Origin: Escherichia phage phi-8
DNA: 5,035 nt
Strand: one strand, 5' to 3'
Sequence record: KF241843.1
Notes under the pieces: model-generated
Seen by the model: only the letters and a program-made list of their open reading frames with translations
Told to the model about the DNA's origin: nothing
The model's database searches: none
Position numbers and translations under genes: made by a program
Shown here: one piece after another, positions 1,350 through 1,601 of the stretch
Layout: each line of letters starts with the position of its first letter
Numbering within the stretch: the first letter of the stretch is position 1

Positions 1350-1601
1350 TCAGGCAGCCTTGTTGTAAATGTTGCAGGTATCAAGTAAGTAATTAGATGG
1401 AGCGCCATAAATTATGAATTCATCGTTTGTCGGGTCCATCTCCATCTCTTGTCCTATTGCCATTCTTGCGTCAGTGTCGTCAGCGGCGAAGCATAAAACA
1501 GCCCACGCACCCATTGTTTTAAAAAGAACTGCAATTGGCTGTGGTTTTACTGAATTTGCGTTAGCGCGAAAATCACAAATCGCACTTTCATGAAATTCCA
1601 T
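1350..1601 (-). CDS. Hypothetical 83-aa protein at the ral position (not Ral-like)
   Basis: Track ORF 1350..1601(-) MEFHESAICDFRANANSVKPQ...CNIYNKAA; ATG 1599-1601 with strong SD GAGGTGA about 4-5 nt upstream (plus 1605-1611). No similarity I can recognise to lambda Ral, though the stop falls where lambda ral stop would map by offset. Confidence 0.55.
   Translation of the reverse strand: MEFHESAICDFRANANSVKPQPIAVLFKTMGAWAVLCFAADDTDARMAIGQEMEMDPTNDEFIIYGAPSNYLLDTCNIYNKAA

What the first reader, a model, noticed from the sequence alone, without database searches (positions are those of the whole stretch)
1350..1601. Mosaic junction at the ral position: lambda-like left arm joins a non-lambda module
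gam, kil, cIII and ea10 keep lambda spacing, and a lambda-map offset puts the ral stop exactly at 1350. The gene here is an unrelated 83-aa ORF that shares only its last codons (..NKAA-stop) with lambda Ral as I recall it. That points to a recombination boundary at a short conserved gene-end sequence, as in lambdoid module exchange. The 83-aa protein itself is uncharacterised; an anti-restriction or host-modulating role is possible only by positional analogy.
Basis: partly seen in the sequence, partly recalled or inferred. Interest (0 to 1): 0.45.

Follow-up and report, generated by a model that had tools for sequence, protein, structure and literature searches.

The report
Swapped gene cassette at lambda's ral slot
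In this cloned Shiga-toxin phage segment, lambda's anti-restriction gene ral is cleanly replaced by an unrelated small gene of unknown function, which is an ordinary case of the gene-cassette swapping already known in lambda-like phages.

Summary
The window is a plasmid-cloned gam-to-cII segment of an Stx2 phage, 99.7-99.9% identical to phage 2851, WGPS4 and VT2-Sakai/Sp5. Window 79-1366 aligns to lambda 32816-34103 without gaps at 98.4%. Lambda's ral stop falls exactly at 1350, and identity drops to chance at 1366/1367. The junction is two-sided: a 31-nt island (1596-1626) holding the ribosome-binding site and start codon matches the start of lambda orf28. So only the core 1367-1595 replaces lambda ral+orf28. 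Phage 2B8 has the same flanks with ral in place of this gene. The shared "NKAA-stop" is the 5' arm of a conserved terminator-like hairpin (1361-1340 plus a U-tract) with the stop codon in its loop. Among 79 viral contigs with both boundary elements, the slot has 16 different contents. The 83-aa gene (Sp5 ECs1180, PHROG 2471) is real (dN/dS 0.08), acidic, unrelated to Ral and confined to enterobacterial prophages. It has no informative homolog or fold, so its function is unknown; an early counter-defence role is only a guess. The kind of event is already known, and interest is low to moderate.

The parts
1350..1601 (-). ORF83: an 83-aa acidic protein (pI 4.2, net charge about -7), identical in position to VT2-Sakai orf20 and Sp5 ORF21/ECs_1180; PHROG 2471, function unknown
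   Evidence: ORF list. Annotation in VT2-Sakai and Sakai. PHROG 2471 at E 1.4e-61; no Pfam, NCBIfam or PADLOC hit. dN/dS 0.08 against the Citrobacter copy, with differences by codon position 15/12/43.
1367..1595 (-). The substituted core: the only part of the cassette with no lambda counterpart. It replaces lambda 34104-34351 (ral + orf28).
   Evidence: BLASTN and base-by-base comparison with lambda. Phage 2B8 has the same flanks with a 248-bp ral/orf28 core that is 98% identical to lambda's.
1596..1626 (-). Upstream boundary element: a conserved linker carrying the Shine-Dalgarno sequence, the ATG and the second codon (GCAGCAAACCACTTATTTGAGGTGATATATGGAA). It is shared with lambda orf28 and with most other inserts at this slot.
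   Evidence: A linker with <=3 mismatches is present in 79 of the 120 viral loci that carry the hairpin motif, and most inserts start at +7 from it. It is also kept in the Citrobacter and Enterobacter copies and recurs between tandem cassettes.
1330..1361 (-). Downstream boundary element: a terminator-like hairpin, AAGGCUGCC-UGAU-GGUGGCCUU, followed by UAUUUUU. The 5' arm is the codons Lys-Ala-Ala and the UGA stop lies in the loop.
   Evidence: Pattern scan. Folding energy -13.9 kcal/mol. The mEp234 GenBank record annotates a rho-independent terminator at this position. The hairpin is kept in diverged ORF83 copies through pairing-preserving changes. The same 3' arm and T-tract follow at least 8 unrelated upstream genes.
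1194..1215 (-). Second terminator-like hairpin plus a T-run, in the shared lambda-like left arm upstream of ea10. It corresponds to lambda ~33931-33952, which from memory is the tL2a position.
   Evidence: -13.6 kcal/mol. Lambda coordinates follow from the ungapped register.
1660..1932 (-). N antiterminator (HK97/Stx type, 90 aa). It lies immediately upstream of ORF83 in the pL operon.
   Evidence: Pfam N_peptide at E 2.3e-32. The SD GGGAGGAA precedes the ATG at 1932. RefSeq ECs_1181 is 273 nt.
2033..2150 (-). pL-like promoter (TTGACC-17-TACTAT, 2150-2122) and nutL (boxA GCTCTTTAAACAA, about 2075-2063; boxB GGCTGAAAAGCC, about 2044-2033).
   Evidence: Promoter scan. boxA and boxB were read by eye from the sequence, so they are inferred and not tested.
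79..1366 (-). Lambda-like left arm (gam, kil, cIII with its thermoregulator, ea10, and the ea10-ral spacer), collinear with lambda 32816-34103.
   Evidence: 98.4% ungapped identity. Rfam Lambda_thermo at 681-739(-), 88.5 bits.

Best explanation
Window 1350-1601 is a real gene, ORF83, that occupies a hypervariable single-gene slot just downstream of N in the leftward early (pL) operon of lambda-like phages. Lambda carries orf28+ral in that slot.

Shown: only the core 1367-1595 differs from lambda. Two short conserved elements bound it, and both also flank many unrelated inserts in other phages. The first is an upstream translation-initiation linker (1596-1626). The second is a downstream terminator-like hairpin with a U-tract (1361-1330). 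The 5' arm of that hairpin encodes the last three residues (K-A-A) and its loop holds the stop codon. This explains why Ral, ORF83 and a third unrelated protein share a 'KAA-stop' end.

Inferred: inserts are exchanged between co-resident lambdoid phages and prophages by homologous recombination in these shared boundary elements and in the longer conserved flanks. Units of [linker-ORF-hairpin] can also be stacked in tandem.

Inferred: the scan finds no other terminator-like site between pL and this hairpin. N and ORF83 would therefore form the N-independent immediate-early transcript, and N-modified polymerase would read through into ea10, cIII, kil and gam.

Guess: the function of ORF83 is unknown. 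Its size, acidity, early position and slot-mates (Ral, an Nmad5 protein) make a host-takeover or counter-defence role the most likely one, at roughly one chance in three. It is not a Ral homolog.
For: The junctions are placed at base resolution. Phage 2B8 has 97% identical flanks on both sides (window 1100-1366 and 1596-1760) with an intact ral+orf28 core that is 98% identical to lambda's. Other phages carry other inserts between the same flanks, with recurrent junctions at 1309/1345/1366 and 1596/1599/1609. In 79 IMG/VR loci with both boundary motifs there are 16 slot contents: Ral+orf28 30, Nmad5 12, ORF83 8, a 107-aa protein 6, and others, including the tandems Ral+Nmad5 and Ral+membrane protein.

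For the hairpin: it fits the terminator pattern and folds at -13.9 kcal/mol. mEp234 annotates it as a terminator. A type B stem (AGGCCG/CGGCCU) with the same 3' arm and T-tract follows at least 8 unrelated genes. The 107-aa protein ends DKAA*, encoded by AAG-GCC-GCA-TAG, which is the type B stem.

Diverged ORF83 copies (75% nt identity, pS 0.72) keep a hairpin with the stop in the loop through U.G<->C-G, G.U<->G-C and C-G<->U.G changes, and one copy uses the type B stem. The protein tail after Tyr79 varies (NKAA/KAA/KQAA/KQPA/KQAV/KLVA) while the core is nearly invariant.

The gene is real: dN/dS 0.08. ORF83 homologs sit directly after an N-type gene in E. coli and Klebsiella prophages and in two of the three P0009 loci, beside different N families and different recombination modules. 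No other terminator-like site lies between the pL-like promoter and 1361 on the minus strand.
Against: Terminator function is not tested, and in lambda itself and 38 of 120 sampled loci the hairpin is degenerate (-4.3 kcal/mol), so it is not indispensable. The sample was collected with a pattern that fixes the 3' arm, which biases the hairpin statistics. The stem changes seen are wobble-to-Watson-Crick, one-sided changes, not double compensatory substitutions. Junction positions differ between inserts, so at least the first insertion of each may have been illegitimate recombination rather than exchange at a dedicated linker. Rho-dependent termination between N and ORF83 cannot be excluded. For the protein there is no functional evidence: AF2 pLDDT is 52-56, fold and PDB searches are empty, and the only experimental report says the gene could not be deleted from an Sp5 lysogen. 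A dispensable counter-defence gene would not be expected to behave that way.
Confidence: 0.8

Rival explanations
1. One reading: a single recombination breakpoint. A lambda-like left arm (gam to the ral stop) is joined to a wholly non-lambda module at a short conserved coding sequence at the gene end.
For: Homology to lambda does end sharply at 1366/1367, 17 nt into the ORF. Apart from three short islands, the sequence to the right is not lambda-like.
Against: Lambda-like sequence resumes at 1596-1626, exactly at the RBS and start codon. 2B8 shows the same two junctions with the same N on the right. The conserved end is a hairpin shared by unrelated genes, not a conserved peptide.
Confidence: 0.1
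2. The junctions arose by random illegitimate recombination, with selection keeping only non-disruptive joins at gene boundaries (the Hendrix/Juhala model, from background knowledge). Under this view the linker and hairpin are conserved for expression and termination, not because they serve as recombination substrates.
For: Left junctions fall at three positions (1309, 1345, 1366) and right junctions at three (1596, 1599, 1609), depending on the insert. One insert (the WGPS9 156-aa gene) removes the hairpin altogether.
Against: The same insert is found with exactly the same junctions in many different phages, and different inserts share exactly the same boundary sequences. That pattern is what spread by homologous recombination in shared flanks would give. 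The two models are not exclusive: origin could be by illegitimate recombination and spread by homologous recombination.
Confidence: 0.3
3. ORF83 is needed for stable lysogeny or host viability of Sp5-type prophages, for example by neutralising a toxic prophage function. This is the suggestion of Mondal et al. 2016.
For: In a systematic in-frame deletion set of Sp5 in K-12, only ECs1180 (ORF83) and ECs1184 (window 2661-3182) could not be deleted (PMC5155283).
Against: The result is negative, and the paper does not say at which step construction failed. 2B8 has identical flanks with Ral in place of ORF83. PhiR11_1 has the same cI-cro (97%) and N/pL (93%) but neither gene. mEp234 has ORF83 without ECs1184. 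Both undeletable ORFs flank oL/pL-N, so both constructs probably carried pL-N (and kil, for ORF21) into a repressor-free cloning host; this is my inference. The design also keeps only 9 nt per ORF end, which trims the terminator stem from 9 to 6 bp.
Confidence: 0.12
4. ORF83 is a functional analog of Ral: an immediate-early inhibitor or modulator of type I restriction-modification, non-homologous but doing the same job.
For: ORF83 occupies the same slot and the same expression context as ral. It is small and acidic, like several DNA-mimic anti-restriction proteins (the comparison is from background knowledge). Another slot allele is an Nmad5 'nucleotide modification associated' protein. Phage phi330, which carries ORF83, was the only EHEC phage in PMC12502783 with no recognised anti-RM gene.
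Against: There is no sequence or structural similarity to Ral, Ocr, ArdA or any family. Ral is basic and Cys-rich, whereas ORF83 is acidic. Most other slot alleles have unknown function, including membrane proteins, so the slot is not dedicated to anti-restriction.
Confidence: 0.15
5. ORF83 is not a gene but a chance open frame in a non-coding spacer or an RNA element.
For: No known domain and a low-confidence structure prediction.
Against: dN/dS is 0.08, with 43 of 70 differences at third positions. There are 35 invariant residues across 12 homologs from four genera. A strong conserved SD sits at the correct spacing. There is no Rfam hit in the region.
Confidence: 0.02

Closest known systems
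Lambda orf28-ral segment (lambda 34087-34357) and the Ral family (Pfam PF11058, PHROG 1055)
   Same: Same position in the pL operon. The RBS, the ATG and the second codon are those of orf28. The last four codons plus the stop, and the downstream hairpin and T-tract, are those of ral. Both are short early proteins.
   Different: The 229-bp core is unrelated. One 83-aa acidic protein stands in place of two overlapping ORFs (28 aa + 66 aa). There is no Ral Pfam hit and no BLASTP alignment. Ral is basic (pI 8.8) and Cys-rich.
Lambdoid genetic mosaicism and module exchange at gene boundaries (Susskind and Botstein modular theory; HK97/HK022 and HK620 comparative genomics; background knowledge)
   Same: Sharp transitions from about 98% identity to none, at gene boundaries. 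The same flanks carry alternative genes in different phages.
   Different: Nothing fundamental. The detail added here is that the boundaries of this slot are an RBS linker and a terminator hairpin with the stop codon in its loop, and that the slot has at least 16 states.
Morons (extra genes in lambdoid genomes, typically flanked by their own promoter and terminator; background knowledge)
   Same: A single accessory gene inserted between conserved genes and followed by an intrinsic-terminator-like hairpin.
   Different: No upstream promoter was found. The gene is fused to the pL operon through a shared RBS linker, so it is expressed as part of the early operon rather than autonomously from the prophage.
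Phage 'accessory regions' mined for counter-defence genes (for example the screen in PMC12373910, where Ral is one accessory gene)
   Same: A hypervariable slot between conserved genes that contains a known anti-restriction gene in some phages and unknown small genes in others.
   Different: No peptide from ORF83 was found in that paper's held supplements, though these lack even Ral's sequence, so its absence from the library is not shown. No phenotype is known.
Integron gene cassettes
   Same: Promoterless single-gene units, each with a conserved structured 3' element, stacked in tandem downstream of a common promoter.
   Different: This is an analogy only. There is no integrase and no attC-type site, and exchange is presumably by general homologous recombination.

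Membership tests
Ral antirestriction family (PF11058 / PHROG 1055) | Significant sequence match to the Ral profile | tested here: not met
   No Pfam hit at E<=1. The PHROG assigned is 2471, not 1055. Lambda Ral itself scores 1.6e-48. BLASTP of ORF83 against Ral finds no alignment at E<=100.
Ral antirestriction family (PF11058 / PHROG 1055) | Alleviation of type I restriction or enhancement of modification | not testable with these tools
   Needs a plating-efficiency assay on EcoKI/EcoBI hosts.
Lambdoid pL early-left operon | Collinear gene order N ... ea10-cIII-kil-gam on one strand, downstream of a pL/nutL region | tested here: met
   Ungapped 98.4% alignment of gam to ea10 with lambda. N_peptide Pfam hit. 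Lambda_thermo Rfam hit in the cIII leader. pL-like promoter, with boxA and boxB read from the sequence.
Mosaic cassette substitution (alternative genes between identical flanks) | Another genome with the same flanks on both sides and a different insert | tested here: met
   2B8 has 97% flanks on both sides with a ral+orf28 core. WGPS9, mEp235, Stx1_JNE122536 and Sf101 carry other inserts. There are 16 slot contents in 79 viral loci.
Rho-independent (intrinsic) terminator | G+C-rich stem-loop immediately followed by a U-tract on the transcribed strand | tested here: met
   9-bp stem, 4-nt loop and UAUUUUU at 1361-1330(-). Folding energy is -13.9 kcal/mol, but z is only -1.6 against shuffles. 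The hairpin is conserved in diverged homologs.
Rho-independent (intrinsic) terminator | Transcripts actually end there in the absence of antitermination | not testable with these tools
   Needs Term-seq, 3'-RACE or in vitro transcription. The mEp234 record's terminator annotation is itself a prediction.
Moron | Own promoter upstream of the inserted gene | tested here: not met
   No promoter-like site lies between the N stop (1660) and the ORF83 start (1601). The only nearby hit (1438-1411) is inside the ORF, and the promoter-like count in the region is at the level expected by chance.
Known anti-phage defence proteins (PADLOC) and NCBIfam named families | Profile match | tested here: not met
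   No hits at E<=0.1.

The most novel reading that the evidence does not exclude
ORF83 founds a new, narrowly distributed family of immediate-early counter-defence proteins that substitutes functionally for Ral and is made together with N before antitermination. More generally, the region after N in lambdoid phages would be an array of promoterless [RBS-linker / ORF / stop-in-loop terminator] cassettes, whose conserved ends act as portable recombination sites for swapping such genes.
Probability: 0.25. Interest if true: 0.5.

Novelty: already known. Interest (0 to 1): 0.25.

Why it matters
The result mainly serves as a clean, well-bounded example. It shows at base resolution how one accessory gene is swapped for another in lambda-like phages, and it explains the odd shared 'KAA-stop' ending as translation running into a terminator stem. 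On the practical side, the two boundary motifs give a simple way to harvest the genes that occupy this slot: at least a dozen small genes, nearly all of unknown function, sitting beside the known anti-restriction gene ral. They are reasonable candidates for counter-defence or host-takeover screens. ORF83 is carried by the Stx2 prophage Sp5 of E. coli O157:H7 Sakai and occurs in about 7% of complete E. coli genomes. It is also one of only two Sp5 genes reported as undeletable, and that report deserves a cleaner retest.

Tried and rejected
Structure: two AlphaFold2 runs, on 10- and 12-sequence alignments, gave mean pLDDT of 52 and 56. That is too low to use. Foldseek against BFVD returned nothing below E 0.1, and no further fold searches were run because the model is unreliable.

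Remote homology: the exhaustive profile search of 1.84 billion representatives gave 7 hits. Two of these are repeat proteins that accumulate weak per-repeat scores. The family therefore could not be extended beyond Enterobacteriaceae. The PDB sequence profile search found nothing below E 0.09. Pfam, NCBIfam and PADLOC gave no hits.

Literature: a peptide search of the full-text library and of the supplements of the accessory-gene screen found nothing. A tL1/tL2/ral search returned only irrelevant papers, so statements about lambda tL1 and tL2a rest on memory and are marked as such.

Rfam at a permissive threshold found only the cIII thermoregulator and nothing in 1350-1601.

Rejected ideas: the antisense 59-aa ORF at 1414-1593(+) and the 51-aa 'orf19' at 1253-1408(-) were considered as alternative genes. 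The substitution pattern fits the ORF83 frame, and orf19 crosses both the recombination junction and the terminator. A toxin-antitoxin-like pairing of ECs1180 with ECs1184 was also considered and rejected, because each occurs without the other.

Full report
WHAT THE WINDOW IS

The first 80 bases and about the last 47 are a pGEM-T-Easy-type polylinker (read directly). The insert, about 81-4988, is a PCR product of the early region of a lambdoid Stx phage, running from gam to cII. It is 99.9% identical to Stx2a_WGPS4 and phage 2851, and 99.7% identical to VT2-Sakai-type phages. The ORF in the finding, 1350-1601 on the minus strand, is VT2-Sakai orf20 and ECs_1180 of prophage Sp5 in E. coli O157:H7 Sakai. 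It is annotated 'hypothetical protein' in every record seen.

CHECKING THE OBSERVATION

- Against lambda (J02459/NC_001416), window 79-1366 aligns without a single gap to lambda 32816-34103, with 20 mismatches in 1288 nt. The gam, kil, cIII and ea10 spacing is therefore exactly lambda's.
- Identity in 20-nt windows is 19/20 up to about 1340, 16/20 at 1350 and 10/20 at 1360, and falls to chance level (about 5/20) from 1370 on. The break at 1366/1367 is sharp.
- Lambda Ral ends QNNKAA* and ORF83 ends IYNKAA*. BLASTP finds no alignment between them, and ORF83 has no Pfam Ral hit.

THE SECOND JUNCTION

Window 1596-1626 matches lambda 34352-34381 (29 of 31 columns; E 4.7e-6 in the local search). 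On the transcribed strand this is CCACT(T)ATTT(G/A)AGGTGATATATGGAA, which holds the Shine-Dalgarno sequence, the ATG and the second codon of lambda orf28. The orf28 start codon coincides with the ORF83 start codon at 1601. Only the core 1367-1595 (229 bp) is therefore foreign. It replaces lambda 34104-34351 (248 bp), which holds the overlapping orf28 and ral.

The best control is phage 2B8. It matches the window at 97% on both sides (1100-1366 and 1596-1760, including the same N gene), but between those points it carries a ral+orf28 core 98% identical to lambda's, with both ORFs intact. This is a two-sided single-cassette substitution, not the edge of a large non-lambda module.

THE SLOT IS MULTI-ALLELIC

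A BLASTN survey of phage records shows homology ending at the same few positions in many records: window 1309, 1345 or 1366 on the left, and 1596, 1599 or 1609 on the right.

- WGPS9 carries a 156-aa gene.
- mEp235 and an Stx1 phage carry a 207-aa Nmad5-domain gene (Pfam E 3.7e-72).
- Sf101 carries ral plus two further genes.
- mEp234, a non-Stx phage, carries ORF83.

Of these, 79 also have the upstream linker within 3.5 kb, and their slot contents fall into 16 clusters:

- Ral+orf28: 30
- Nmad5: 12
- ORF83: 8
- a 107-aa acidic protein: 6
- an internally deleted ral: 5
- Ral plus a 140-aa membrane protein: 5
- rarer ones, including the tandems Ral+Nmad5 and Ral+149-aa protein

Most inserts place their ATG at +7 from the linker. 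Apart from Ral and Nmad5, the alleles belong to families of unknown function.

WHAT THE SHARED GENE END REALLY IS

On the transcribed strand, 1361-1340 forms AAGGCUGCC-UGAU-GGUGGCCUU followed by UAUUUUU (-13.9 kcal/mol). The 5' arm is the codons AAG-GCU-GCC (K-A-A) and the UGA stop lies in the loop. The mEp234 GenBank record annotates a rho-independent terminator at this position. Several lines of evidence show that it is the hairpin that is conserved, not a peptide:

(i) A second stem type, (A)AGGCCG-CAUAGU-CGGCCU(U), has the same 3' arm and T-tract and follows at least eight unrelated upstream sequences. Homology breaks right at the base of the stem.

(ii) The unrelated 107-aa protein also ends DKAA*. 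Its tail is encoded by AAG-GCC-GCA-UAG, which is this second stem.

(iii) ORF83 copies in Citrobacter, Klebsiella and Enterobacter and in a metagenomic contig are about 75% identical at the DNA level, and synonymous sites are near saturation (pS 0.72). All of them keep a hairpin with the stop in the loop and a T-rich tail. The stem differences preserve pairing (U.G to C-G, G.U to G-C, C-G to U.G). One of these changes alters the last residue from Ala to Val. The Enterobacter copy uses the second stem type.

(iv) Within the protein family the core up to Tyr79 is nearly invariant, but the last 3-4 residues vary: NKAA, KAA, KQAA, KQPA, KQAV, KLVA.

There are caveats. The changes are one-sided rather than double compensatory. 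My sampling pattern fixed the 3' arm. The lambda-type version, found in lambda itself, in 2B8 and in 38 of 120 loci, has two mismatches and folds weakly at -4.3 kcal/mol. The two window-versus-lambda mismatches at 1348 and 1359 are exactly these two stem positions. Terminator activity is untested.

UNIT STRUCTURE

In tandem arrangements, the hairpin of the first gene is followed directly by a second copy of the linker and RBS and then by the next gene (Sf101, L134, and the Ral+Nmad5 locus L073). The region behaves like an array of promoterless [linker-ORF-hairpin] units downstream of pL. This resembles integron cassettes only by analogy.

EXPRESSION CONTEXT (INFERRED)

Upstream on the minus strand lie a pL-like promoter (2150-2122) and nutL boxA and boxB (about 2075-2033, read by eye). 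N follows, with its real start at ATG 1932 (SD GGGAGGAA; 90 aa, matching RefSeq ECs_1181). The scan finds no terminator-like site between pL and 1361. If the hairpin terminates, N and ORF83 together form the N-independent immediate-early transcript. A second terminator-like hairpin at 1215-1194 corresponds to lambda ~33931-33952, which from memory is the tL2a position. Rho-dependent sites cannot be assessed with these tools.

THE PROTEIN

ORF83 is a real gene. Against the Citrobacter copy dN/dS is 0.08, and 43 of 70 differences are at third codon positions. The protein is 9.2 kDa with pI 4.2 and net charge about -7; Ral has pI 8.8.

The family is tiny. There are 19 clusters in the 5.8-billion-protein collection, all from Enterobacteriaceae and all unnamed. 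The 1.84-billion-protein representative library gave 7 profile hits, of which 2 are repeat-protein artefacts. The core DNA is present in 403 of 5,426 complete E. coli genomes.

The gene directly follows an N-type gene in the window, in mEp234, in the Klebsiella loci and in two of the three P0009 loci. In the Enterobacter loci it follows an unannotated 95-101-aa gene, and in the third P0009 locus (L004) it follows a DUF3927 gene. The neighbouring N families and recombination modules differ between these loci. No domain, PDB relative or usable structural model was obtained.

THE ONLY EXPERIMENTAL DATA FOUND

Mondal et al. 2016 (PMC5155283) attempted in-frame deletions of all Sp5 genes of unknown function. 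They failed only for ORF21 (ECs1180, which is ORF83) and ORF23 (ECs1184, which is window 2661-3182). They suggested that both are needed for stable lysogeny. I treat this as weak evidence, for four reasons.

- The step at which construction failed is not reported.
- 2B8 shows the gene can be replaced by ral between identical flanks.
- PhiR11_1 has the same cI-cro (97%) and N/pL (93%) but neither gene, and mEp234 has ORF83 without ECs1184.
- Both ORFs flank oL/pL-N. Both constructs therefore probably carried an unrepressed pL-N (plus kil, for ORF21) into a repressor-free cloning host. This is my inference.

In addition, keeping only 9 nt per ORF end shortens the terminator stem from 9 to 6 bp.

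VERDICT

It is nevertheless a textbook instance of lambdoid cassette exchange in published genomes, so in kind it is already known.

The modest added value has three parts. The boundaries are an RBS linker and a stop-in-loop terminator hairpin. This accounts for the shared KAA ending. The slot has at least 16 states that can be harvested with two motifs.

The function of ORF83 remains unknown. An immediate-early counter-defence or host-takeover role is my best guess (about 0.3), a Ral-like anti-type-I role is a subset of that (about 0.15), and a lysogeny-maintenance role is possible (about 0.12).

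Noticed in passing
window 1-80 and about 4989-5035: Cloning-vector polylinker of the pGEM-T Easy type (NotI/EcoRI/SpeI and EcoRI/SacII/NotI/NcoI/SphI/AatII sites). The window is a plasmid-cloned PCR product, not a native genome segment.
   Followed up: partly
window 2661-3182 (-): A 173-aa ORF (Sp5 ECs1184, PHROG 2602, no Pfam hit above threshold) sits where lambda has rexAB, between cI and pL. Together with ORF83, it is one of the only two Sp5 genes reported as undeletable (PMC5155283).
   Followed up: partly
window 3684-4385 (-), especially 3688-4094: The cI repressor is itself a mosaic. 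The C-terminal (cleavage and dimerisation) part is 93% identical to lambda cI at the DNA level. The N-terminal DNA-binding part has no lambda match, so there is a junction inside the gene, near a domain boundary.
   Followed up: no
window 1660-2004 (-): The N ORF is listed as 114 aa, but nutL boxA and boxB (about 2075-2033) and a strong SD before the ATG at 1932 indicate a 90-aa N. This agrees with RefSeq ECs_1181 (273 nt). The older VT2-Sakai annotation (345 nt) is probably too long.
   Followed up: partly
window 681-739 (-): Rfam Lambda_thermo (the cIII thermoregulator) at 88.5 bits, E 2.4e-21. This was the only Rfam hit in the window.
   Followed up: yes
window 2244-2359: An island 87% identical to lambda 35708-35826 (between oL3 and the rexB stop). 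It contains a terminator-like hairpin at 2359-2338(-), just downstream of a 40-aa ORF (2365-2487, PHROG 21154).
   Followed up: no
window 1253-1408 (-): VT2-Sakai 'orf19' (51 aa, PHROG 31828) starts inside the ORF83 core in another frame, then crosses the recombination junction and the terminator hairpin. It is probably an annotation artefact.
   Followed up: partly
window 1276-1284 / 1295-1303: A 9-bp inverted repeat (GTGTATTCA / TGAATACAC) lies 6 nt to the left of the recurrent junction at 1309 used by the WGPS9 and Sf101 inserts.
   Followed up: no
loci L084, L090, L096, L059, L016 (slot alleles): A family of 121-149-aa predicted membrane proteins (PHROG 3054) at the same slot shares conserved N- and C-termini (MEEQANKIL... 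and ...WLKIWLAPKLYLIEYAASLVK), with variable middles.
   Followed up: no
P0021, P0022 (profile search hits): Two long tandem-repeat proteins (3126 aa with 44 matched stretches; 1357 aa, SprB-like) scored E 1e-35 and 1e-13 against the ORF83 profile by summing weak per-repeat matches. They are false positives, and this is worth remembering when reading such tables.
   Followed up: yes
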